IMG/VR virus record: IMGVR_UViG_3300046529_000479
Strand: one strand, 5' to 3'
Length of the DNA stretch: 20,000 nucleotides
Origin: an uncultured virus (IMG/VR IMGVR_UViG_3300046529_000479)
Taxonomy: Duplodnaviria; Heunggongvirae; Uroviricota; Caudoviricetes
The translations under genes and the position numbers were made by a program. The notes under the pieces are model-generated. The model made no database searches and was not told the DNA's origin. It saw only the letters and a program-made list of their open reading frames with translations. How positions within the stretch are numbered: position 1 is the stretch's first letter; each line of letters opens with the position of its first letter. Positions 1,865 through 15,746 of this stretch are shown piece by piece.

Positions 1865-2184
1865 GCTGGCTGGTGCAGCTCGCGCCCGGCCTCGCGCGCG
1901 TGCACGCGCCCGCGCACTAAAGACTTATATCCATGGTTGTGAATTGGGGTGCCTCGTACGCGCGCGCGCGCAAAGAGCTTTTACTACTGAATAATGAGTT
2001 TTGAATGCAACGCGCGCCCCCGGCCCCGCGCGAGGCCCGGTGAAAAAACCTTCGCCTAGGCGCACGTACGCGCGTAAGCGAGAAAATCTGCATAGAGAGG
2101 TTTGGGTCGCGGGCGTACGGGTACGCGACTGCATGTGTTTTTCAGTTTTCTAAATAGGCTACTGCACGAAAAGCCTGCTAAAAT

Positions 2185-2300
2185 GTGGTTTTTTGTCAAT
2201 GTTGTGGTTTTTGCCTGGAATATTCTGTGTAATTTTGTGTAATTTTGTGGGGTGTTGGGTTTTTGTGTCAATTATGTTGTTTAGGGGTCAATTCTGGGTT
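2185..2300. repeat. T/G-rich block with phased T-tracts and tandem TGTGTAATTT
   Basis: TGTGTAATTT x2 at 2226-2245; T-runs near 2189, 2208, 2233, 2243, 2260 and 2280. Confidence 0.6.
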
Positions 2301-2358
2301 TCAACGGTCAAGACCGCTTCCGTGCCGGGACTCCGGTTTCTACATTTTTCCCACGGTG

Positions 2359-3458
2359 ATCGGCGGGTCGGCGAGTCGAGAGCTCGCGCCTCGATTACCC
2401 CGATTAGCAGGGATTTTCCGCGCTTCCCCCGCTCCCGCCCGCCCCGAGGCGTAGCCCGTCTAGGCGACGTTTACCGTTTAGGCTACGGATCTCGGTTCGG
2501 AGTTAGGCGATCCCCTCCCCGCCCCCGCGCGTACCGTTCTTCGAGCCGGAGACGGGCGCCGACGTTATCCCTCGATCGTTCGAGGCGAGAGGCGGGCGGT
2601 ATTAGTCGGAGGAGCCGCGCGATCGCTACGCGCGGGCTTCGCGGGGGCGGTCTACGGCTTCCCTCGCCTCGCCCGCCTTATAGCCGCCCGGGGGACTCGA
2701 TCGGACGCGCGTAGGGTCGCCGTCCCCCGTAGGTAGGGGCGGCTCCCGGGCTTTAGAGCGTAGGCGCGCGAGCCGTAGACCTTCCTTCCTTCGGCGGGCG
2801 GTCGGAGCCTCTTAGAGAGGCTCCGAGCGTCCCGCGAGAGGCGCGCAGGGATCGACGGGGGTCGAGAGATTCGAGGCGTTCGATTCTCTCGACCCCGCTC
2901 GATCGCGCGCGCCTCGCGCGGGACGGGGAATCCTCCCCGCCCCGACGAACGAAGGAGAGAAAAGTGTCCGTATCTAAGAAAGACGCCGCGAAAATCTCGA
3001 AGCTCGCGGCCGAAGGTAAGTCCGACGCCGCGATCGACGCGGCCGTCTATCCCGGGGAGACGGGAAAGTGGAGTACGCGGGAGATCTCCTACGCGGCGCG
3101 GCGCGACGCCTACGCGGCTTCGCTCTCGCCGAACGGCCCGAAGTACGACGGGCCGATCGTCCCTTCGCGCCTCGGCGCGTTCGAGACGATCGAGAGCGTT
3201 CGAGCGTCCGACGTCGCGGCGGTACTCGCCGAGTCGCCGAAGCTACGCGCCTACGCGCTTCCGATCGTCTTCGGCTTCCGCCCGACTCGGGCGAACGTCG
3301 ATAGGCTCGGCGGCTTCGCGGTCGCGCGGAAACGCCCCGGGCGGCTCGCCTCGGGCGCCTCGCGCGCCTAGCAGGGATCGAGCGGGGGAAGGGGAGAGGC
3401 TCGCGCCTCGCCCCTTCGCCCCGGTCGCGTCCCGCGACCGAACGCGGAAGGAAGGACG
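2359..3458. other. TG/CA-depleted segment, probable first-injected genome end
   Basis: Manual scan of 1100 nt found only 3 CA (2408, 2846, 3372) and 2 TG (2965, 3069). Confidence 0.9.
2964..3371 (+). CDS. First early protein (135 aa), candidate anti-defence factor
   Basis: GAAGGAG SD, GTG start; no Cys, His, Gln or internal Met and one Trp. Function is inferred from position only. Confidence 0.8.
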   Translation: MSVSKKDAAKISKLAAEGKSDAAIDAAVYPGETGKWSTREISYAARRDAYAASLSPNGPKYDGPIVPSRLGAFETIESVRASDVAAVLAESPKLRAYALPIVFGFRPTRANVDRLGGFAVARKRPGRLASGASRA

Positions 3459-3576
3459 CAAAGCCTCGCGATCGCGAAGCCGCGCGTCCGGTTTCCGCAC
3501 GCCCTCGATTCGGAAGGGTAAGCGCAAAAGAGGAAGCTACAAAAAGTTTCCTCAAAAACGAAGGAGGGTCACGAAA

Positions 3577-3915
3577 GTGGCAAAACGGAAAAAGCCGGCA
3601 AAAAGCAGAGGGCCGGTATCATCGAAGTCCGCAAGAAGTCCGGGACAAAGCCGCGACTCAAAGATAAGCGCGGCAACCGGAACGCCCGCAATCGACCTCG
3701 AACTAGCAAGGGCCGAAGCGTGCGACGCATTCGTCGGGAACACAAACGTAGTGTTCTTCAAGAAGAAGCGCACTAAGCGTACAAAGCTCGGGCCTGCCGG
3801 ATCATGGTACAATGGCCGAGCTGAGAGCGGCGAAAAGTGCGGAGCACTCGCGATAATGTCCAGATACAAAGACGGTAAGCGAGTTCACCGCTGCGCGAAT
3901 CACATCGCGTCGTAA
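3577..3915 (+). CDS. Basic hypothetical protein with C...C...CxxH
   Basis: CGAAGGAGGG SD at 3559; Lys/Arg-rich 112 aa. Confidence 0.8.
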   Translation: MAKRKKPAKSRGPVSSKSARSPGQSRDSKISAATGTPAIDLELARAEACDAFVGNTNVVFFKKKRTKRTKLGPAGSWYNGRAESGEKCGALAIMSRYKDGKRVHRCANHIAS

Positions 3916-3994
3916 CGACAAAGACGCGCGTTGAAGGTCGAGCGACGGACAACCCGCTCGGCCTTGAACGACAAACGAAGGAGGGTACAAACAG

Positions 3995-4156
3995 ATGACA
4001 TACGCGATCCAGTCGTCAGGCAGCGGGCAGCCGCCCGTAATGACGAACATCATCGCTGAGTTCGCGACGGAAGCAGAAGCCGTCACGACACTCGCTCGAC
4101 TATTCAAGTCGAGTCCAGTTCGCAAGAACTACCTCAGCATCGTGAAAGTCAAGTAG
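3995..4156 (+). CDS. Hypothetical protein (53 aa)
   Basis: SD at 3976; MTYAIQSSGSGQPPVMTNIIAEFATEAEAVTTLARLFKSSPVRKNYLSIVKVK (manual translation). Confidence 0.8.
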   Translation: MTYAIQSSGSGQPPVMTNIIAEFATEAEAVTTLARLFKSSPVRKNYLSIVKVK

Positions 4157-4226
4157 CGAGCTGAAGATCGGGCAAGGACAACTGCCCGGTCTTGAGCACG
4201 ATACCGATACACGAAAGGAGGGTACA

Positions 4227-4325
4227 GTGTACAAATGGAAAGACGCTTGGCCGACATACATCACTGCTCTGCCAATCGTCGTAATCGCATGTGCGCTCAT
4301 TGGGCGCGCGATCTCACATCTGTAG
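4227..4325 (+). CDS. Single-pass membrane peptide (32 aa)
   Basis: AAGGAGGG then GTG; MYKWKDAWPTYITALPIVVIACALIGRAISHL; stop abuts the next element. Confidence 0.7.
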   Translation: MYKWKDAWPTYITALPIVVIACALIGRAISHL

Positions 4326-4387
4326 CAGAAGCTGCGTCGTGGACAACCGACGCGGCTTGTACTACAGACAACAAACGAAGGAGGGTC

Positions 4388-4717
4388 ATGAAGCCAGAGT
4401 TCATAGAGAAAGTCTGGACAGCAACTGACCGCGAAGTCAAAGCTGACTGGATCGCCAATCAGTATGAAGGCGAATATGTCAGCCCTCACTGGACAGTGGC
4501 TGGCGTCCAAGGTGATCAGATCATCTTCTACTGTTACGCAGAGCAACTCGGATATGAAATCTGTGTCTGGATCAGTGATTTCGATCCTAGCAACCGCTAT
4601 GGCGGCGGCGAAGGGCTTGAAAGCAGACCGACATTGCGAGGAATCGTAATGTGTATTGAAGGCGAATGCGGCTGGATCAGCATCAAGGATCACAGTATCG
4701 TCAACAACTGCAACTGA
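4388..4717 (+). CDS. Hypothetical protein (109 aa)
   Basis: SD at 4376; MKPEFIEKVW... Confidence 0.8.
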   Translation: MKPEFIEKVWTATDREVKADWIANQYEGEYVSPHWTVAGVQGDQIIFYCYAEQLGYEICVWISDFDPSNRYGGGEGLESRPTLRGIVMCIEGECGWISIKDHSIVNNCN

Positions 4718-4805
4718 TAGAAGCTGCTACTCAGGACAACGAGTAGCGGCTTGTGTCAGAAGACATGACACAGTACCACAAAATGAAAAATCGAAGGAGG
4801 GTCAA

Positions 4806-5129
4806 ATGAAAGGCGCATTCATCACCATACTGCTACTCGGCAGTCTCTTTGTCGGGGGCGGAGCATTCGCACTTCACGGGATCACCGCCGCGAGCGACAA
4901 GTCAAGTGCTCAGGTCGATCCCAACACTTTCGCAGTCCTGCCAATCGGCGTCAGCGAAAGCTACGTGAGAAGTTCATTCGGAACTCCTCAGAGCAGCGAC
5001 GACACAACTGTCGGCGGCTACGGCAGCACGTTGAACAGCCGTTGTATCTACTACGGCATCCTCAGCCAGAACGGCAGTTATCAGTTCTGCTTCGACAACG
5101 GCAAGCTCGTCTCGAAAAGCAGGTATTGA
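4806..5129 (+). CDS. Secreted or membrane-anchored protein, BLIP/SmpA-OmlA-like fold
   Basis: N-terminal hydrophobic helix; G-x-S-x3-V-x3-FGTP...CIYY...YQFCFDNGKLVSK pattern. Confidence 0.65.
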   Translation: MKGAFITILLLGSLFVGGGAFALHGITAASDKSSAQVDPNTFAVLPIGVSESYVRSSFGTPQSSDDTTVGGYGSTLNSRCIYYGILSQNGSYQFCFDNGKLVSKSRY

Positions 5130-5196
5130 GTAGCAGCTCTGTCAGATAGAATCCGACAGGGCTGGTGTTCAATACAAACGAAGGAGGGTCAGCACG

Positions 5197-5484
5197 ATGG
5201 AAGCCAAGAAAGGCGAAGTCTGCGTGGTGTCCAGCATTCCTAATTGTGATTTCTGCAATCAGGAGGGCACGAAGACGCCAGGCCCGTACGACTTCAAGAC
5301 GCGGTTTGGCCCGTGGGCTCACGGATGTGAGGATCACTGGAAGCTGTACCGTGCGTTCGACAGCCTCGGTGTTGGGCAGGCTCAGATCTGGATCACGAAA
5401 GATGAGGAGCCGAAGCACGCGCCAGGTACACTAGGCGCGATCATGTCCAGCAAGACGAACAGGTTGAACAAAGAACTGGGGTAG
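5197..5484 (+). CDS. Small Zn-binding phage protein
   Basis: CDFC...YDFKTRFGPWAHGCEDH; SD at 5179. Confidence 0.8.
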   Translation: MEAKKGEVCVVSSIPNCDFCNQEGTKTPGPYDFKTRFGPWAHGCEDHWKLYRAFDSLGVGQAQIWITKDEEPKHAPGTLGAIMSSKTNRLNKELG

Positions 5485-5562
5485 TGACCAGTGGCTCCGT
5501 CATGGAGATCAGGGACGTTCGACATGGCGGGGCCGGTGTTCATCACCAACAGAAGGAGGGTC

Positions 5563-5916
5563 ATGAACGAGGAGCAAGCAGATTTCCTTGTGAAGTTCCG
5601 CAAGGAGAATCCGCCACAACCAGTACCAGGACGAGAAATGACTGAGGAGCAGTTTCGTGCTGATCTCAATGGCGTAGCAGAACGAACAGCCAAAGACATC
5701 GGTGGCGACTATCCTCACATCGACACAGGCTTCGAGTGCTACGTGTACAAGATTGACGGCAGATTCGTCGGCTACATCTACATGGGTGAAGCTGGCGAGT
5801 GGGCCCTCATCGACAAGTTCGATCAGTTCGACACCTGTGACGAACCGGACACACAGCTTCACGACGCACCCGAGTATCTCCAACGCGTCAAAGCGCTGTC
5901 GCCATACAAACGGTGA
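5563..5916 (+). CDS. Acidic hypothetical protein (117 aa)
   Basis: SD at 5551; MNEEQADFLVKF... Confidence 0.8.
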   Translation: MNEEQADFLVKFRKENPPQPVPGREMTEEQFRADLNGVAERTAKDIGGDYPHIDTGFECYVYKIDGRFVGYIYMGEAGEWALIDKFDQFDTCDEPDTQLHDAPEYLQRVKALSPYKR

Positions 5917-5977
5917 CCAGCGGCGGGCCGGGAGTTGTCCCCCGGCCTGTCGGTGTTCATCAAACGAAGGAGGGAAC

Positions 5978-6346
5978 ATGGCAATTGTAAGCTGTTTCGA
6001 CTGCCCACAGTCCATGATGACGACAGGTGTCGCAGGCGACGATGTCAGAACGTGGATCTGCTCGGAGTGCGCTCACGAGCGCGGGCTCACGCCTAAGCTC
6101 GCAGAGCGTGTTGCGATCGAAGACGCCAAGTGGGGCAACCCATGCTGCATCTGGGAAGCATGTCCCAAGGACGTCATGAAGCAGATCCTGATTCCGATCA
6201 CAGACAACATCGAGATCGAGGCAGAGAACGCCGGCATCGAAGAAGACAATCCCAACCGCGACTCATGGATGGCACACAAGATCTCTCATCGACTCGTCGG
6301 CGTCATGAACCACATCTGGTTCGGCCCGGAGGTATTGCTCCGATGA
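5978..6346 (+). CDS. Hypothetical protein with CxxC...CxxC
   Basis: SD at 5965; MAIVSCFDC...ICSEC. Confidence 0.8.
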   Translation: MAIVSCFDCPQSMMTTGVAGDDVRTWICSECAHERGLTPKLAERVAIEDAKWGNPCCIWEACPKDVMKQILIPITDNIEIEAENAGIEEDNPNRDSWMAHKISHRLVGVMNHIWFGPEVLLR

Positions 6347-6585
6347 CAGTAGGCAAGTTCGAGATCAGAACGTGGTACGACGGCAGAACCCACAACCAGT
6401 TCCGCAAAGTAGCGGAAGTCGAAGCACCGACCGCACTTCATGCCCTGCGTGCTTACGCGGGGAACAGGCAAGCGATCATTCGACAGCGCAAAACGGACTA
6501 CAGTGACGCCAAAGACTGGACAGCCACGATCCTAAACAAGAACGGAAAGCTGCGCGACTACATCGCTGTTCGGGTACGCAACTGA
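6343..6585 (+). CDS. Hypothetical protein (80 aa)
   Basis: ATGA overlap with the upstream gene; MTVGKFEIRTWYDG... Confidence 0.75.
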   Translation: MTVGKFEIRTWYDGRTHNQFRKVAEVEAPTALHALRAYAGNRQAIIRQRKTDYSDAKDWTATILNKNGKLRDYIAVRVRN

Positions 6586-6689: not shown

Positions 6690-6910
6690 GTGTCGTGAAG
6701 TTCATCTTCATCGACATTCCCGGCTCGATTCTCATACTGTGTTTCATTCTCGGCTGGTGGTCGAGACATAACAAGGTAGTCAAGACCGTGTTCTTTGACG
6801 GGAACGAACCAGTGAAGTCGAAGCCGATTACGCCCAAGCGGATTCCAGTTCCCAAGGCTTCAAAGCCGAAGCTGTACATCGTTCGAGATCAACCAGGTAG
6901 TGAAGAGTGA
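6686..6910 (+). CDS. Small membrane protein
   Basis: FIFIDIPGSILILCFILGWW hydrophobic segment followed by a basic tail; start at 6686 or 6695. Confidence 0.7.
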   Translation: MSVVKFIFIDIPGSILILCFILGWWSRHNKVVKTVFFDGNEPVKSKPITPKRIPVPKASKPKLYIVRDQPGSEE

Positions 6911-6983
6911 ATAGCGGCTCCACAGGTCAGCTACGATCTGTGGGGCCGGTGTTCATAAGACGCCACGAAGGAGGGCCAGCAAA

Positions 6984-7367
6984 ATGCCACTCAACATCTA
7001 TGTGGAGCGAAAAGGCAAGCGTCGCAAGGATCTCATCTGGGATCAGCAGATGCTTGACTTCTGCTACACCGTGGCCTACATGGACGAAGATGCTGACCGG
7101 GAATATCAGACTGGCAAGAAGTTCGCTGACCTCGGCACCTGGACATTCGATCCAGACAACAAGCTCGGATCGAAGTGGTCAGGGCAAGAGTTCGAGCACT
7201 ATGTCACTTTCCAATTCGGTGTGTACTACATCGAGGGTGATTGTGGCCTGGTGGAGAAGGGCGAGCAAGTTGTTAAGCACAAGCATCGCTTCCTTCATTC
7301 ACAGATGGAAAAGCCAGTCGTGTTCATGCCCGGAGACAGAATCGTCGCATGGAGGTCACACAAGTGA
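6984..7367 (+). CDS. Hypothetical protein (127 aa)
   Basis: SD at 6966. Confidence 0.8.
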   Translation: MPLNIYVERKGKRRKDLIWDQQMLDFCYTVAYMDEDADREYQTGKKFADLGTWTFDPDNKLGSKWSGQEFEHYVTFQFGVYYIEGDCGLVEKGEQVVKHKHRFLHSQMEKPVVFMPGDRIVAWRSHK

Positions 7368-7585
7368 TCAAGGTCAAGATGACGCAAGAGGCATTCAACA
7401 CCATGACGACTGCACAGAAGCACAGCATTGATGTTATCCTGAACAATCCGAAACTTGAAAACGTGGTTGTTCAGAAAGGCGGACTCGATCTGCCAGACAA
7501 CTATCTGTGCTTCACGATGCACTGGACGGATCATGGCCAGCCGATTTATGGCGGCATCTCGCCCCAAGGCCAGGTGTCGACATGA
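7349..7585 (+). CDS. Hypothetical protein
   Basis: Tiles the operon; alternative start GTG 7364 after GGAGG; ends YGGISPQGQVST. Confidence 0.7.
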   Translation: MEVTQVIKVKMTQEAFNTMTTAQKHSIDVILNNPKLENVVVQKGGLDLPDNYLCFTMHWTDHGQPIYGGISPQGQVST

Positions 7586-7818
7586 TCACGTTGGAGCAAG
7601 CAAAAAGCCTGAAGCGTGGCCAGATCCTTCACCACGACATCAACAGGAACAGCGATGGCACTTGCCAACGCTGGAAGGTGAATGGTCAAGTGCAGACATG
7701 GAAGCGTGAGCCCAACCGGGTTCGCGTGCCCATTAAACACGGGCTGAGGCACTACGATGCTCTTGATAGCCAAGGTGATCTCGATCTCGTTCATCTCGAA
7801 AGCGAGTGCCCGGGATGA
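7582..7818 (+). CDS. Small phage protein (78 aa)
   Basis: ATGA overlap; MITLEQAK...NSDGTCQRWKVNGQVQTWKREPNRVRVPIKHGL. Confidence 0.8.
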   Translation: MITLEQAKSLKRGQILHHDINRNSDGTCQRWKVNGQVQTWKREPNRVRVPIKHGLRHYDALDSQGDLDLVHLESECPG

Positions 7819-7958
7819 GACTCGTTGGCTACTGCACCGTTTGCCACAAGATCAAGTACGTCCAAGTCACCGGCCACGACCTGGCCATGGCTCAGGCTCG
7901 TGGTAGCAACGTCGTGTCTGGAATCTGCGACGACTGCGAGAAAGAGCAAAGGAAGTGA
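7815..7958 (+). CDS. Zinc-ribbon peptide (47 aa)
   Basis: ATGA overlap; MRLVGYCTVCHK...GICDDCEKEQRK (manual translation). Confidence 0.75.
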   Translation: MRLVGYCTVCHKIKYVQVTGHDLAMAQARGSNVVSGICDDCEKEQRK

Positions 7959-8036
7959 GTAGCGAGTCTGTCCGTCCGATGGATCGGATAGGCTCGGTGC
8001 TCACCAGGCACCAGTAACAACAACCGAAGGAGGGTT

Positions 8037-8726
8037 ATGCCACCATTGATCGAGACGTCACCGGGCGTGCTGGAGTTCGCACTCGATCGTGTGGGTGATG
8101 ACGCAGTTGAGATCCTGGAGCTGTCGTACAACGACATCCCCTGGAGCTGGATCTGCGGCACGCTCACGCGAGCCTGTGTGCTCAACGGGCATAAGAAGCC
8201 CGAGGGCTGCGCTCTCGGCCTGATCGGCATGAACGGCGGTCTGGCTAGCTTCTCTACCAGAGTAGTGAGGCTGTGGGACAACGAGATCGGCAAGGACGTG
8301 CCGACTGGACAGTACGAAGTCCAGGGCATCTTCGAGCAGAGCGATCTGTACGCGACTTCAACGACAGCAGAGGCGATCGTATGCCTCGCGCTGGCGATCC
8401 CGAAAGAGATCACCGTCAGTAAGGCTGGCTGGTACAACGAAGTCGATGAGGCGTACGACAAGTGGGCGGATAACATCCCTCACGACGTTTCAGGAGCTGC
8501 CGACTGCGTTGTCGCCTACAACGACGACGACATCACGAGAGGCGATGCAGCGTCGTGGTTCTGCAACGCCATCGGCATCGCACGTCTGCGCCGATCCGCC
8601 GGCAAGCAGGCCTCGACGTGGATGCAGGACGAGGACGGCTGTGAAGATCCGTCTTGTCAGCAGTGCTACCCGACCAACAGCGACACCGAAGACGCTTTGG
8701 TCGAGATGTACGAGGGCGACGCCTGA
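8037..8726 (+). CDS. DUF6197-like protein, paralog of 11433-11945
   Basis: WICG...KKPEGCALG...LALAIP...YNDD...AASWF. Confidence 0.7.
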   Translation: MPPLIETSPGVLEFALDRVGDDAVEILELSYNDIPWSWICGTLTRACVLNGHKKPEGCALGLIGMNGGLASFSTRVVRLWDNEIGKDVPTGQYEVQGIFEQSDLYATSTTAEAIVCLALAIPKEITVSKAGWYNEVDEAYDKWADNIPHDVSGAADCVVAYNDDDITRGDAASWFCNAIGIARLRRSAGKQASTWMQDEDGCEDPSCQQCYPTNSDTEDALVEMYEGDA

Positions 8727-13405: not shown

Positions 13406-13537
13406 TATGCTCCTGCTGCACGAGGCGGGAGGGGATGGGCAATACGGCCGTAACGGGCACTGCCTGAGGACACTCTAGGTGAACCCGTGTCCCACCCCGC
13501 CTCGTGGAGCAGAAGCTCCAATGAGAAGGAGGGTCAG

Positions 13538-15406
13538 GTGAGTAAAATCACCGCTGAACTCTCGCCAGATGGGAAACGTATCTGGCTCCGGTTCAGCTAT
13601 GAAGTCCGTATCAAGGACACCATCAAGTTCAAGGTGCCCAACAGCCGGTTCGTTCCACCTGAGAAAGGTGGCCCGGCTTGGACAGTGCCTCTCGATCTGC
13701 CGACTGGCCGCATCCTGCGTCATCTGTTCCAGCAACAGCTCGTGCTGGGCCCGAACCTGCTCCAGTGGGGCAGGGACGAGGTTCAACGTGAGCGGAACCT
13801 GTCGGGCCTCGCGCTCGCAGAGGATGCGGAGCTGGTGTACTGTCCGGTCACAGTTCCTGGTATCGTTGAGCTAATCGCAGGCGACGGGACTGAGAACTGG
13901 CCCGATCGACCGTACCAGCGGGCAGACATCGCGTTCCTGGCGGCGACTAACGCCGGCAACCTGAACCAGATGGGCCTCGGGAAAACCATCGAAGTCATCG
14001 GTGCGATCCACGAGGCTCAGATGGAACGCGGAGAGCACTTGATCATTGCACCGAAGACTGCTCTGGAGACTGTCTGGCGACTTGAACTGGAGCGGTTCAC
14101 CGAGATCCCGGTGTTCACGCTCTACAGCGAGACATCTGCGAAGGAGCGCAACGCGCTGCCTGAGCAGATCATGGAAGCCATGGGAGTCTATGGAGGATAC
14201 GCTTTCGTCACGACCGCGAGCATGCTACGCTCGAAGTCGTGGCGAGACGTGTTCATGGAAGCTAACTGGACGAGCATCACCATCGACGAGTACCACAAGA
14301 CGGGACTCTGCGAGGGCTCGTCTCAGTTCTCCAAGCTAGCAAAAGCCATGATACGGCCTAACGGCCAGAAACGCATACCTATGAGCGGTACGCCCATGGG
14401 TGGCAAGCCAATTAAGCTCTGGTCGGCGCTGAACTTCATCGACCCCGACAGGTTTAGCTCGAAGTGGAAGTGGGCTGAACAGTGGCTGGTGATCGAGGAG
14501 GGTTTCAGGAACCACAAGATCATCATGGGCCTGAAGCCCGGCATTGAAGAGGCTTTCTATGCTTTTCATGCGCCATACCTCGTGCGCCGTCTCAAGTCGG
14601 AAGTCGCGAGCCAGCTGCCTCCGAAGCAGCAGGTGGAAGTCATGTGTGATATGACCCCGAAGCAGAACAAGCAGTATCGCGAATTTGCGCGAGCTGCCGA
14701 AATCCGCATCGAGGATCTGCACCTGTCTGCCACCAACATCCTGACGGAGTACCTGCGGTTGAAGCAGTTCGCCAACGCAGTCTGTCTCGTCCACGAGTAC
14801 GAGGTAGCATGCAAGCACAAGAAGAATGAGGGCATGCTACACGGATGCGAAGACTGCCTGGGTGAGGGGATCGTCGTCAAGCAGAAACTAATCCCGACTG
14901 AGGACTCTGGAAAGTTGCCACAACTGCTCCAGAAGCTGAACGAGATCGGGATTGACCCAGACGATCCTGAAGGTGACGCCCAGACCATTATCGCCAGCCA
15001 GTTCCGAGAAATGGTGGACATGGTAGCTGCTTGGTTAGAGAAGCAGGGCATCCCAGTGGCGAAGATCACCGGAGATACCAAAGGCAAGGAACGAGTGAAA
15101 GTCCAGCAGCAATTCCAGAAAGGTGCCGGCCCGAGAGTCGTCTGTATGACGACAACGGCCGGAGGCGTTTCGATCACGCTGGACAAAGCCGATACCTGCC
15201 ACATCCTGGATGAGACCTGGAACCCGGACGACCAGGAGCAATTGGAAGACCGGATTCACAGGATCTCGCGTATCCATCAAGTCACTTGCTACTACTACCG
15301 CTCGAAAGATACAATCGAGCAATACATCCAGGACACGACTGCCGACAAGCGTCGGCTGAACGAGATCCTGCTGGATGTACATCGTATCGCGATGAAGCAA
15401 CTGTAA
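13538..15406 (+). CDS. SNF2-family (SF2) helicase/ATPase
   Basis: MGLGKT, IDEYH, MSGTP, WNPDDQEQLEDRIHRI motifs; GTG start after the SD at 13524; HARP-like N-terminus. Confidence 0.92.
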   Translation: MSKITAELSPDGKRIWLRFSYEVRIKDTIKFKVPNSRFVPPEKGGPAWTVPLDLPTGRILRHLFQQQLVLGPNLLQWGRDEVQRERNLSGLALAEDAELVYCPVTVPGIVELIAGDGTENWPDRPYQRADIAFLAATNAGNLNQMGLGKTIEVIGAIHEAQMERGEHLIIAPKTALETVWRLELERFTEIPVFTLYSETSAKERNALPEQIMEAMGVYGGYAFVTTASMLRSKSWRDVFMEANWTSITIDEYHKTGLCEGSSQFSKLAKAMIRPNGQKRIPMSGTPMGGKPIKLWSALNFIDPDRFSSKWKWAEQWLVIEEGFRNHKIIMGLKPGIEEAFYAFHAPYLVRRLKSEVASQLPPKQQVEVMCDMTPKQNKQYREFARAAEIRIEDLHLSATNILTEYLRLKQFANAVCLVHEYEVACKHKKNEGMLHGCEDCLGEGIVVKQKLIPTEDSGKLPQLLQKLNEIGIDPDDPEGDAQTIIASQFREMVDMVAAWLEKQGIPVAKITGDTKGKERVKVQQQFQKGAGPRVVCMTTTAGGVSITLDKADTCHILDETWNPDDQEQLEDRIHRISRIHQVTCYYYRSKDTIEQYIQDTTADKRRLNEILLDVHRIAMKQL

Positions 15407-15438
15407 ATCAATTCACCCGGCAACAGAAAACACACTTC

Positions 15439-15516
15439 ATACGCGCGCGTACGCCCCCGCCCGGGAAGAAATCACTAGTTTGATCTTCGCTAGTAGGGGC
15501 GTACGTGCGCGCGTAT
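15439..15516. repeat. Long imperfect inverted repeat in a non-coding region
   Basis: ATACGCGCGCGTACGCCCC ... GGGGCGTACGTGCGCGCGTAT. Confidence 0.75.
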
Positions 15517-15746
15517 ACGCGCGTAGGGGAGGATCAATCGGGTAGGGGTCGCGCGCGGCCGTAGGCGCGCGATACAATACAAAGACTAAAACCGCGCCCG
15601 CGCGCGTATACAATTCTGAAATCCCTGCTAATCGAAAGATCAGTTCTCGGCATTAAACTCGGCATCCGAAGGGAGTGAATCGGTAGTAGTCTCCCCGATA
15701 CGAGCCTCGCCGCTCGTGCCGGCAACAATTATTGGAGGGAGCGCCC

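What the first reader, a model, noticed from the sequence alone, without database searches (positions are those of the whole stretch)
2359..3458. 1.1 kb almost free of TG/CA dinucleotides
Seen: only 5 TG/CA in 1100 nt, where roughly 100 would be expected from base composition (rough estimate). Both TGs are obligatory (the GTG start at 2965 and a Trp codon at 3069). All three CAs sit in the same word, GCAGGGAT. The left boundary is sharp, next to a TG-rich block, and CA returns from 3459. Inference: the first-entering genome end has been purged of CA/TG-containing defence targets, such as many type I/III/IIG methylation motifs or the Ssp CCA site. This would parallel restriction-site avoidance in T5/T7 leading DNA but at dinucleotide level.
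Basis: partly seen in the sequence, partly recalled or inferred. Interest (0 to 1): 0.88.

Follow-up and report, generated by a model that had tools for sequence, protein, structure and literature searches.

The report
TG/CA-free early gene cassette in phage
A soil phage writes its first small gene and the 600-base leader in front of it almost without the DNA step TG/CA, and keeps it so by ongoing selection, which points to an unidentified agent that reads TG/CA on newly arrived phage DNA.

Summary
Window 2359-3458 holds 5 TG/CA where about 116 are expected (5000 shuffles never fell below 87). The window is an uncultured ~65-kb myovirus from soil, with actinophage-like proteins. The zone lies where the late and early gene arms diverge. 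It comprises a structured leader, one conserved gene (ORF135, dN/dS 0.26) and a hairpin. A sister genome has the same zone; about 18% of reliably aligned bases differ there, and neutral drift at that level would have made about 65 TG/CA. Two distant relatives also have one, around an unrelated gene on the other strand. Of 17 related genomes scanned whole, 4 have a strong zone, 2 intermediate, 2 weak and 9 none. Replacements of TG/CA are varied, so this is selection, not a directional mutation process. The zone is rich in TG/CA-less palindromes (CGCG at 39 per kb), so it is not general restriction-site avoidance. T5's first-step-transfer DNA shows no such ban. No DNA-modifying enzyme was found. 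Whether the zone is the physical, first-entering end is untested. This scan found the same ban before in E. coli Wifcevirus phages; I re-measured it in ECML-117. The agent is unknown.

The parts
2184..2315 (.). TG-rich, T-rich repeat block on the left flank of the zone. It carries TTGACA/TTGACC-like words on the - strand.
   Evidence: repeat families D7, D9; one sigma-70-like site on the - strand, 2271-2242. Comparable TG-rich blocks flank the zones of G006 and G009.
2327..2336 (.). GGGACTCCGG, the reverse complement of CCGGAGTCCC. Its core GGA(C/G)TCC is a 7-bp palindrome. It marks the sharp edge of the zone.
   Evidence: The 10-mer occurs once per genome, always at the zone edge, in 6 of 6 clade genomes (both G001 halves, G002, G004, G006, G009). 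It is absent from 8 of the 10 other genomes searched. About 0.1 chance hits are expected per genome (my arithmetic).
2341..2346 (+). TACATT, a possible -10 element of a rightward early promoter. It would put the transcript start near 2353, at the zone edge (inferred).
   Evidence: G002 has TATAAT and genome A has TACATT at the same offset from the 10-mer. No -35 element was found, and the consensus scan found no + strand promoter.
2359..3458 (.). The TG/CA-free zone: 5 TG/CA against about 116 expected; G+C about 0.70; CG and TA enriched.
2353..2963 (+). Non-coding, hairpin-rich leader with no credible reading frame.
   Evidence: stop-to-stop frames give only R/P/G-rich translations. (minimum free energy -355 kcal/mol against -300.5 +/- 8.2 for 100 shuffles, z = -6.6). 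(inverted repeats I7 2791-2837 and I2 2850-2904). (no Rfam family; only a chance hairpin match below threshold).
2407..2414 (+). GCAGGGAT word 1, within ATTAGCAGGGATTTTC.
   Evidence: The 16-mer is identical in genome A and in G002 at the same place.
2845..2852 (+). GCAGGGAT word 2, followed by the 25-nt-arm hairpin at 2850-2904.
   Evidence: D2, D5, I2.
2964..3371 (+). ORF135: GTG start, ribosome-binding site GAAGGAGAG, 135 aa, no C, H, Q or M, one W. No family is known; the predicted fold is all-helical.
   Evidence: homologues; dN/dS 0.26; P of no C/H/Q/M = 2.8e-6; no Pfam or PHROG family; pLDDT 79.6; best Foldseek E 0.39; best VIA Z 3.5.
3371..3378 (+). GCAGGGAT word 3. It overlaps the stop codon of ORF135 by its final G and is followed by the hairpin at 3384-3421.
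   Evidence: (I20). The 27 nt CGCGCCTAGCAGGGATCGAGCGGGGGA are identical in genome A.
3459..3720 (+). Downstream tail: CA is back (16) but + strand TG is still nearly absent (1 against 7.9 expected). It covers the leader and first 48 codons of the next gene.
   Evidence: Genome A shows the same pattern.
3577..3915 (+). Second early gene: 112 aa, lysine-rich, no family. It lies on the slope where TG/CA returns to normal.

Best explanation
The zone is one small self-contained early cassette: a leader, ORF135 and a hairpin. It lies at the point where the late and early gene arms diverge, directly beside a unique palindromic site. Continuing purifying selection keeps its duplex DNA free of the base step TG/CA, and that selection overrides codon choice and even amino-acid choice (shown).

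Most likely (inferred), this cassette has to work on the bare infecting genome before any phage function exists. Something outside the phage reads or attacks TG/CA steps in such DNA, for example a host nuclease or defence system of very low sequence specificity, or a DNA-binding small molecule. A cassette without the step is invisible to that agent. The ban fades downstream, as would be expected if later DNA is covered by functions the cassette or its neighbours provide.

The agent is not identified. That the cassette is the first to be transcribed, or the first to enter the cell, is inferred from its position only.
For: 1. The ban acts at duplex level, not gene level. It covers 600 nt of non-coding leader as well as a gene. 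In relatives G006 and G009 it surrounds a different gene (profile comparison probability 0.4%) on the opposite strand. There too the only TG/CA are the start codon, a Trp codon and, in G006 only, one further TG.

2. It is actively maintained. The sister copies differ at 141 of 758 reliably aligned ungapped positions (about 18-19%), with dS 0.67 in ORF135. Each copy nevertheless has only 5-6 TG/CA. Random substitution at 18% gives 64.9 +/- 6.4, with a minimum of 43 in 2000 simulations.

3. It is selection, not a directional mutation process. Where the G002 orthologue has TG/CA, genomes A and B carry many different replacements: TG>TC 8, CA>GA 5, TG>CG 4, CA>AA 3, CA>GC 3 and others. They include amino-acid swaps M>L, H>D, C>K/T and Q>S/A/K.

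4. In G009 the zone coincides with one transcription unit. It ends at a 12-bp-stem terminator of its gene. In the window it starts at a putative -10 element and ends after a hairpin.

5. Strength varies among close relatives without any phage gene tracking it. G002 (helicase 77% identical) keeps the orthologous gene with 28 TG/CA. No Tet_JBP, ParB_N, N6_N4_Mtase or DNA_methylase was found in six-frame searches of 5 records. This fits an agent that depends on the host or habitat.

6. The same signature (TG/CA down, CG and TA up) is found in an unrelated E. coli phage, ECML-117: ratio 0.24-0.46 over 6700-8400 against a genome mean of 1.16. A ban on AG/CT would cost no amino acid (my reasoning from the genetic code), so convergence on TG/CA argues for a specific reader of that step.
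Against: No known defence system or nuclease has TG/CA as its whole specificity (recalled knowledge; no call tests this). The zone is full of other short palindromes, so ordinary restriction enzymes are not being avoided.

Early timing and first entry are not shown. No raw reads or RNA were available, and no sigma-70-type promoter was found.

Two asymmetries do not fit a pure duplex-step model. TG alone stays rare on the + strand in 3459-3720. In G002, CA is more depleted than TG.

Nine of 17 relatives manage without a zone.

The absence of recognisable modifying enzymes does not exclude a new one; most early genes have no family.
Confidence: 0.4

Rival explanations
1. Mark-free island. The phage itself puts a chemical mark on a base at TG (hence on both strands of every TG/CA step) after replication. 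The first cassette must stay unmarked, for instance so that unmodified host RNA polymerase can read it, or so that modification-dependent nucleases cannot attack it before an inhibitor is made.
For: There is a precedent for dinucleotide-level marks in phage DNA. Passages of PMC13229309 report that T-dioxygenase 5mYOX176 prefers NTG and 5mYOX97 prefers NTC. The listed title of PMC7544227 reports one deazaguanine modification at two motifs in phage CAjan.

The zone matches a transcription unit, as a block to elongation would predict.

An unexplained enzyme cluster sits beside the polymerase: a ThyX-like protein, an SDR, a Methyltransf_11 protein, a nucleotidase-like protein and a protein with an FAD/NAD(P)-type N-terminus. 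ECML-117 shares DnaE, ThyX and SDR.

Earlier agents of this scan favoured this reading for a groundwater phage (unchecked).
Against: Six-frame searches found no Tet_JBP, ParB_N, N6_N4_Mtase or DNA_methylase in 0 of 5 records. The SDR is absent from G006 and G009, which have strong zones. The 'kinase-like' protein matches actinophage nucleotidases or phosphatases, not a DNA kinase. No gene tracks zone strength. Genome-wide TG/CA is not raised in zone carriers. A TG-only mark would not explain the resistance of Wifcevirus to EcoRI and EcoRV (passages of PMC11990801; the recognition sites are recalled).
Confidence: 0.22
2. Cis-acting DNA element. The stretch is part of a replication origin or packaging region. 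TG/CA is cleared so that the few retained words (three GCAGGGAT, each containing CAG/CTG, two of them next to hairpins) are the only places where a low-specificity enzyme, such as a primase or nickase, can act.
For: The only CAs kept are three copies of one 8-mer in one orientation, and two are followed by strong hairpins. The first and third are conserved to the letter in the sister genome, and the first also in G002. The zone sits at the cumulative GC-skew minimum, between divergent arms. Repeat arrays flank it. CAG/CTG is the most depleted trinucleotide in the ECML-117 zone (0.06).
Against: G006 and G009 have no GCAGGGAT in their zones. The ban runs through a whole protein gene at a cost in amino acids. 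The GC-skew minimum also follows from transcription direction alone. The primase idea rests on recalled E. coli DnaG specificity.
Confidence: 0.1
3. Signal hygiene. Every NTG start codon, the TTGACA -35 element and the TG of extended -10 elements all contain TG or CA. A ban therefore leaves the true start codons as the only expression signals on either strand of the first cassette.
For: The only TGs kept are two start codons (2965 and 3578) and one Trp codon. + strand TG avoidance runs on through the next gene's leader and first 48 codons. In ECML-117, ATG/CAT is the least depleted TG/CA trinucleotide (0.69).
Against: Such selection is normally weak. It would hardly remove His and Gln codons, which make no sense-strand start codon, or hold a 20-fold depletion over 600 non-coding bases. 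Nine of 17 relatives do without it.
Confidence: 0.1
4. Mutational or biased-repair origin. For example, T:G mismatch repair towards C:G in a recombination hot spot turns TG/CA into CG and raises G+C.
For: The zone has high G+C (0.70 against 0.58) and CG at 1.54 of expectation. Recombinant flank pairings occur in exactly this region in different runs.
Against: Replacements are mostly not TG>CG or CA>CG (6 of 43 changed dinucleotide pairs). TA is also enriched 2.5-fold relative to the rest of the window. In ECML-117 the zone has no G+C rise, and TA words rise as much as CG words. ORF135 is under purifying selection (dN/dS 0.26).
Confidence: 0.04
5. Assembly or sequencing artefact.
For: The nearest record, G001, is a head-to-tail join of two related genomes with both ends inside the zone. 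54 nt of the window (2833-2886) are missing from it.
Against: Contigs of three further runs from other studies (X3, X4, X5), besides the possible source run X1, lie on the zone. X4 alone covers nearly all of it with 0-3 differing letters. Two diverged copies and two distant relatives show the same ban. The gene inside has homologues and a dN/dS of 0.26.
Confidence: 0.01

Closest known systems
First-step-transfer (pre-early) DNA of phage T5, in its 10.2-kb terminal repeat
   Same: Both concern the first phage DNA to act in the cell, which carries a few small genes and must survive unprotected. T5's first-step DNA is reported to lack EcoRI sites (recalled; no paper read here). Complex repeats lie at one border: the T5 record annotates an 'injection stop signal'.
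   Different: T5's first-step DNA has normal TG/CA (0.73-1.21 per 500 nt). No A1, A2 or dmp homologue lies in the zone. A terminal repeat and two-step entry are not shown for this phage. The avoided unit here is a dinucleotide, not a restriction site.
CA/TG-poor early cassette of E. coli Wifcevirus phages
   Same: TG/CA is depleted and CG and TA are enriched, over small early genes and the non-coding DNA between them. The residual TG/CA sit in necessary signals. I re-measured this in ECML-117. The replication modules share distant DnaE, ThyX, SDR and helicase genes.
   Different: The Wifcevirus ban is about 3-4-fold; here it is about 20-fold. There it lies inside a ~3.7-kb terminal repeat (passages on WFC/WFH in PMC6563267; placement of the zone in the repeat comes from earlier notes and is unchecked). 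There G+C is not raised. The structural genes are unrelated: the portal here is actinophage-like.
Restriction-site (palindrome) avoidance in phage genomes; the T7 leading end with gene 0.3 (ocr)
   Same: Sequence is shaped by what can attack incoming DNA before counter-defence is expressed (recalled knowledge).
   Different: Here short palindromes without TG/CA are kept or enriched. The ban is local (1.1 kb), not genome-wide.
Phage DNA modification with dinucleotide-level specificity (NTG-preferring T-dioxygenase 5mYOX176 with a ParB-like activator)
   Same: It shows that an enzyme reading only T followed by G exists in phages (passages of PMC13229309).
   Different: No Tet_JBP or ParB_N gene is present in this phage or in 4 relatives. 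No modification has been observed.
Eukaryotic dinucleotide signatures: CpG islands; repeat-induced point mutation (low CpA/TpG, high TpA)
   Same: The numerical signature is similar: low TG/CA with high CG, as in an island, or with high TA, as in RIP (recalled).
   Different: Those are mutational signatures tied to cytosine methylation or deamination. Here the replacement spectrum is diverse and the gene is under purifying selection.

Membership tests
T5-type first-step-transfer region | Lies in a long direct terminal repeat at the physical genome end | tested here: inconclusive
   Only contigs were available, so no termini could be mapped. Contig depth in the zone is not doubled against the flanks (X1: 10 against 9.1 and 7.1; X4: 13.9 and 11 against 11.6-19.5), but the samples hold mixed strains. 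The end repeats of 110-127 nt measured in three relatives' records are probably assembly overlaps (my inference), so they carry no information on physical ends.
T5-type first-step-transfer region | Carries homologues of the pre-early genes A1, A2 and dmp | tested here: not met
   ORF135 and the next gene match no Pfam or PHROG family. A nucleotidase-like gene exists, but in the replication cluster about 40 kb away.
T5-type first-step-transfer region | DNA entry in two steps | not testable with these tools
   This needs infection experiments.
Restriction-site avoidance | Short palindromes or host restriction motifs are under-represented as a class | tested here: not met
   Per kb in the zone against the rest of the window: CGCG 39.1 against 8.1, GCGC 23.6 against 6.2, TCGA 17.3 against 7.3, GATC 11.8 against 10.1. 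Among the palindromes frequent elsewhere in the window, only the TG/CA-containing CATG and TGCA fall to 0; the A/T-only TTAA, AATT and ATAT are also 0 but are rare throughout. Host motifs are unknown.
Phage DNA hypermodification with a short target motif | A gene for a base-modifying enzyme (TET/JBP dioxygenase with or without ParB, or a DNA methyltransferase) | tested here: not met
   Six-frame profile searches of G001, G002, G004, G006 and G009 found 0 of 5 for PF12851, PF02195, PF01555 and PF00145. For PF02195, PF01555 and PF00145 the control genomes matched above the family cut-off in 9 of 14; for PF12851 no control reached the cut-off, so that search is weaker. Other enzyme classes were not searched genome-wide.
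Phage DNA hypermodification with a short target motif | Modified base detected in virion DNA | not testable with these tools
   No native-DNA reads or chemistry are available for this uncultured phage.
CA/TG-free early cassette (this scan's Wifcevirus finding) | Local TG/CA depletion of at least 3-fold, with CG and TA enriched, across genes and spacers | tested here: met
   Window: 0.04 of expectation, CG 1.54, TA 1.44. ECML-117: 0.24-0.46, with CGA/TCG at 2.4 and TAA/TTA at 2.3.
CA/TG-free early cassette (this scan's Wifcevirus finding) | Residual TG/CA confined to necessary signals (start codons, Trp or Met codons, control words) | tested here: met
CA/TG-free early cassette (this scan's Wifcevirus finding) | Common descent with the Wifcevirus cassette | tested here: not met
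   The zone genes have no homologue in the phage collection. The portal's best matches are actinophages at about 37% identity. Only replication genes are distantly shared. The likeness is therefore convergent or positional.

The most novel reading that the evidence does not exclude
Bacteria as different as E. coli and soil (probably actinobacterial) hosts expose newly arrived phage DNA to a common, still undescribed agent that reads nothing more than the TG/CA base step. It could be a low-specificity nuclease or defence, or DNA-intercalating natural products (a phenazine-type intercalator prefers TpG:CpA steps: passages of PMC4027214; anthracyclines block phage infection at an early step: section 5 of bioRxiv 10.64898/2026.01.13.699316). 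At least two, by earlier notes three, unrelated phage lineages have convergently answered by writing their first-acting cassette without that step.
Probability: 0.3. Interest if true: 0.88.

Novelty: new variant of a known kind. Interest (0 to 1): 0.75.

Why it matters
A ban on a single dinucleotide, strong enough to remove four amino acids outright (a fifth, Trp, survives at one invariant codon) and held through about 18-19% sequence divergence, is among the strongest local sequence constraints I know of in a phage genome. No known reader of DNA explains it.

If an agent that reads TG/CA on incoming DNA exists, whether a host factor, a phage-made mark or a small molecule, it is a new layer of the phage-host conflict. 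It would also give a simple design rule for which stretch of a phage genome is exposed first.

The case can be tested directly in cultured E. coli Wifcevirus phages, which show the weaker form. The soil clade described here shows that the rule can become nearly absolute and can be gained or lost between close relatives.

My three full-text searches (and the Wifcevirus search) found no report of it.

Tried and rejected
DNA and protein searches of the phage collection with the zone and with ORF135 found nothing. A scan of IMG/VR with ORF135 found no relative.

The 16-mer ATTAGCAGGGATTTTC in IMG/VR gave 10 loci. Nine are chance hits in unrelated contigs with normal TG/CA; only G002 is a relative.

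In the 30 helicase-anchored loci (about 10 kb each side where the contig allowed) no 300-nt window fell below 0.25, because the zones lie just outside those pieces. Whole records were then fetched for 16 of them. G005 and 13 further loci were never scanned whole.

Gene presence or absence against zone strength follows only phylogeny. One apparent hit (window 5062-5418, - strand) was the wrong strand of a small Cys-rich gene (5197-5484) that also occurs in G002 and G017.

The 95%-identical core (2543-2800) between the sister genomes is absent from G002. I take it as recent exchange or the reason for the joined assembly, not as a conserved RNA. Rfam gave no family.

ORF135 fold searches gave no match: Foldseek best E 0.39, VIA best Z 3.5, protein atlas best 0.84. 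There are only weak helix-turn-helix leads.

ORF135 and the G006/G009 zone gene show no homology.

The idea of a hypermodification cluster with a DNA kinase was dropped: the protein matches actinophage nucleotidases or phosphatases.

The transition/transversion ratio in the zone (59/82) is only mildly below the rest of the genome (4954/4880) and is not decisive.

Read laying gave contigs only, so there is no information on termini, strand or expression.

The daunorubicin screen (section 5 read) did not include Wifcevirus.

The recognition site of EcoCFT_II is given only in a figure that I could not see. The S2 Table of PMC11990801 was not read. Both may bear on the Wifcevirus restriction argument.
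Full report
**What the window is**

The window is phage DNA. Leftward genes of unknown function occupy 3-1917. From 2964 onward a rightward arm carries small unknown genes, then an SNF2 helicase (13487-15406), a PD-(D/E)XK exonuclease, a Sak4-like protein and a primase.

The nearest held record, G001 (129,757 nt), shares 100% of the window's sampled words. It is two related genomes of about 64.8 kb joined head to tail (individual blocks 72-96% identical at nucleotide level, 56.8 kb aligned). Both of its ends, and its middle junction, lie inside the zone. The window is its reverse complement and runs across its two ends, with 54 extra bases at 2833-2886.

Each genome is a myovirus. It encodes TerL, a Mu-like portal, a sheath and baseplate J. 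It also carries a DnaE-type polymerase, ThyX, a primase-helicase and a few unexplained enzymes. The best matches of the portal and of a nucleotidase-like protein are actinophages at 37-45% identity. The DNA occurs in soil and rhizosphere metagenomes: 24 runs of 24 studies, 12 of them holding at least half of the sampled words, 2 of them possibly the source.

**The observation**

Window 2359-3458 has 2 TG and 3 CA against about 116 expected. In 5000 shuffles the count never fell below 87. The two TGs are the GTG start of ORF135 and its only Trp codon, which is invariant in 4 of 4 homologues. The three CAs all lie in GCAGGGAT.

CG is 1.54 and TA 1.44 times expectation, although TA is 0.57 in the window as a whole. 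G+C is about 0.70.

The left edge is sharp. The right side is a slope: 0.38 of expectation in 3401-3600, 0.70 in 3601-3800 and 0.96 in 3801-4000. On the + strand TG alone stays rare to 3720 (1 against 7.9 expected).

**It is not an artefact**

Logan contigs of a run other than the possible source cover 1243-2799 (3 differing letters, which are the sister genome's letters) and 2770-3618 (0 differing letters). The possible source run covers 1887-2838 and 2848-6500 without a difference.

The left flank is joined to the sister genome's right side in runs X4 and X5, and to the window's right side in run X1. The pairing of flanks therefore varies. This is either recombination or a crossing of the assembly graph at a shared 30-mer (2770-2799). 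It does not affect the zone, which each sister genome has.

**Anatomy**

From left to right the region holds:
- a TG-rich repeat block (2184-2315);
- a 10-mer, GGGACTCCGG, with a palindromic 7-bp core (2327-2336);
- a possible -10 element, TACATT (2341-2346);
- a 600-nt leader with no credible reading frame and much more predicted structure than shuffles give (z = -6.6);
- ORF135 with a good ribosome-binding site (2964-3371);
- a hairpin (3384-3421).

ORF135 is a real gene. It has homologues of 124, 140 and 139 aa. Indels between the sister copies are multiples of three. dN/dS is 0.26 at dS 0.67. It has no Cys, His, Gln or internal Met, which has probability 2.8e-6 given this phage's own amino-acid usage. 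It matches no family and no solved fold.

**Relatives**

I scanned 17 related genomes whole, scoring each by its lowest 400-nt (for G001, 500-nt) window.

| Zone strength (lowest window, observed/expected) | Genomes | Count |
|---|---|---|
| Strong, below 0.1 | both G001 genomes, G006 (0.06), G009 (0.02) | 4 |
| Intermediate | G004 (0.26), G013 (0.30) | 2 |
| Weak | G002 (0.46), G012 (0.52) | 2 |
| None, 0.63 or above | G003, G007, G008, G010, G011, G014, G015, G016, G017 | 9 |

All six genomes of the closer clade carry CCGGAGTCCC exactly once, always at the zone edge. Eight of the other ten lack it.

In G006 and G009 (helicase 44-45% identical) the zone surrounds a different gene (155 and 161 aa; no detectable homology to ORF135). 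That gene lies on the opposite strand and ends at a strong intrinsic terminator. The only TG/CA inside are again a start codon, a Trp codon and, in G006, one more.

G002 (helicase 77% identical) keeps the ORF135 orthologue, but with 28 TG/CA and with Met, His, Cys and Gln residues.

So the ban belongs to a place and a role, not to a gene family. It can be strong or nearly absent in close relatives.

**Selection or mutation**

The sister zones differ at about 18-19% of reliably aligned positions. Random substitution at that level would give about 65 TG/CA (minimum 43 in 2000 simulations). Each copy has 5 or 6.

Where G002 has TG/CA, the two strong-zone genomes carry many different replacements, transversions as often as transitions, and several amino-acid changes. 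A one-directional process such as T:G-to-C:G repair would not produce this spectrum.

The ban covers both strands, coding and non-coding DNA, and genes in either orientation. The simplest object being avoided is therefore the duplex step TG/CA. An RNA-level cause would need two separate bans, on UG and on CA.

**What it is not**

- It is not general restriction-site avoidance. CGCG, GCGC, TCGA and GATC are as frequent as elsewhere or up to five times more frequent.
- It is not like T5 in composition. T5's first-step-transfer repeat has normal TG/CA.
- It is not explained by a recognisable phage modification enzyme. Six-frame searches of five records found no Tet_JBP, ParB_N, N6_N4_Mtase or DNA_methylase, and no gene tracks zone strength.
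- Banning TG/CA is not the cheapest way to simplify a sequence. A ban on AG/CT would cost no amino acid (my reasoning from the genetic code). Convergence on TG/CA therefore suggests a specific reader of that step.

**Other lineages**

Earlier notes of this scan report a CA/TG-poor early cassette in E. coli Wifcevirus phages, their Pantoea and Serratia relatives, and a groundwater phage. These are leads, not evidence.

I checked one case myself. ECML-117 has TG/CA at 0.24-0.46 of expectation over about 6700-8400, against a genome mean of 1.16 (sd 0.18). CAG/CTG is the most depleted trinucleotide (0.06) and ATG/CAT the least (0.69). CG- and TA-containing words are enriched 1.6-2.4-fold.

[quoted passage not shown] In ECML-117 the zone holds 3 AGACC sites (the EcoP1I site as I recall it) and no EcoRI, EcoRV, EcoKI or EcoAI-type sites, although the genome holds 17, 9, 3 and 4 of these. 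With so few sites expected in 1.7 kb this is only consistent with, not evidence for, the idea that only this stretch is exposed to restriction.

ECML-117 shares only distant DnaE, ThyX, SDR, helicase and TerL genes with the present phage. The structural genes here are actinophage-like. The likeness is therefore convergent or positional.

**How it most likely works**

Shown:
- a local, duplex-level ban on TG/CA, maintained by selection;
- it covers one small cassette at the head of the early arm;
- it lies beside a unique conserved palindrome.

Inferred:
- the cassette is the first to act on the bare infecting genome;
- TG/CA is what some agent reads on that DNA.

I put 0.40 on an agent outside the phage, such as a host nuclease or defence of very low specificity, or a DNA-binding small molecule. 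The reasons are that strength varies between close relatives without a matching change in phage genes, and that no modifying enzyme is found.

I put 0.22 on a phage-made mark at TG that the cassette must lack. The precedent is the NTG-preferring T-dioxygenase (passages of PMC13229309).

Smaller shares go to a cis-acting origin or packaging element built around the GCAGGGAT words (0.10), to removal of decoy start codons and promoter words (0.10), and to biased repair (0.04).

Only contigs were on hand, and their depth shows no terminal-repeat doubling.

**Novelty**

Three full-text searches found no report of a TG/CA ban in phage early DNA. The scan has seen it before on other DNA. This window adds:
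- an independent lineage from soil;
- a nearly absolute form of the ban;
- gain or loss between close relatives;
- the same ban around unrelated genes in either orientation;
- a conserved edge motif.

Noticed in passing
G001 whole record (L044-L050); window 2770-2886: The public record nearest the window is a head-to-tail join of two related ~64.8-kb phage genomes (aligned blocks 72-96% identical), labelled 100% complete. The join and both ends lie in a ~260-nt core that is ~95% identical between them (window 2543-2800). Different runs pair the flanks differently.
   Followed up: yes
window 2327-2336; G001 497 and 65576; G002 63285; G004 58182; G006 35309; G009 13207: CCGGAGTCCC (palindromic core GGA(C/G)TCC) occurs once per genome, always at the sharp edge of the zone. 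In the window its central base pair is flipped. It could be an operator in a promoter spacer or a genome-end (cos-like) site.
   Followed up: partly
window 15400-15730 and 1950-2120: A second intergenic region between the helicase and the exonuclease carries TACGCGCGCGTA-type palindromes like those at 1950-2120. It also has ATTAGCAGGGATTT in reverse orientation, and its TG/CA count is mildly low (14 and 17 per 200 nt against about 24.5 expected). This looks like a shared set of control sites.
   Followed up: partly
L074/L075 (G006 about 34000-34480, shown) and L091 14010-14400 (G009): On the side of their zones facing the early genes (the side opposite the 10-mer), G006 and G009 carry arrays of CAACTCAA(G)TCA-like repeats. 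These arrays are CA-rich on one strand and preceded by a TG-rich, CA-free stretch. They may be iterons or promoter arrays.
   Followed up: no
window 5197-5484 (+): A small Cys/His-rich protein (95 aa, zinc-ribbon-like by eye) is conserved in genome A, G002, G006, G009 and G017. The longer ORF on the opposite strand (5062-5418) is spurious.
   Followed up: partly
G001 about 102000-110500 (L049 2042-10415): An enzyme cluster lies beside the DnaE polymerase: a ThyX-like protein, an HU-like protein, a Methyltransf_11 protein, an SDR, a nucleotidase or phosphatase-like protein, a protein with an FAD/NAD(P)-binding N-terminus (phrog_8720), and a weak Rpf-like match. E. coli phage ECML-117 has DnaE, an SDR and ThyX in a similar neighbourhood. 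The function is unknown.
   Followed up: partly
window 4656-5129 (+): A 157-aa early protein with an N-terminal hydrophobic stretch (MKGAFITILLLGSLFVGGGAFALHG) looks like a secreted or membrane protein. It is found only in the two sister genomes. It may be a superinfection-exclusion type of gene.
   Followed up: no
G002 contig ends (L062 end / L059 start): G002 is labelled linear, but its last ~98 nt repeat its first ~98 nt apart from the first few bases. It is therefore effectively a circular assembly, broken inside the ORF135 orthologue.
   Followed up: partly
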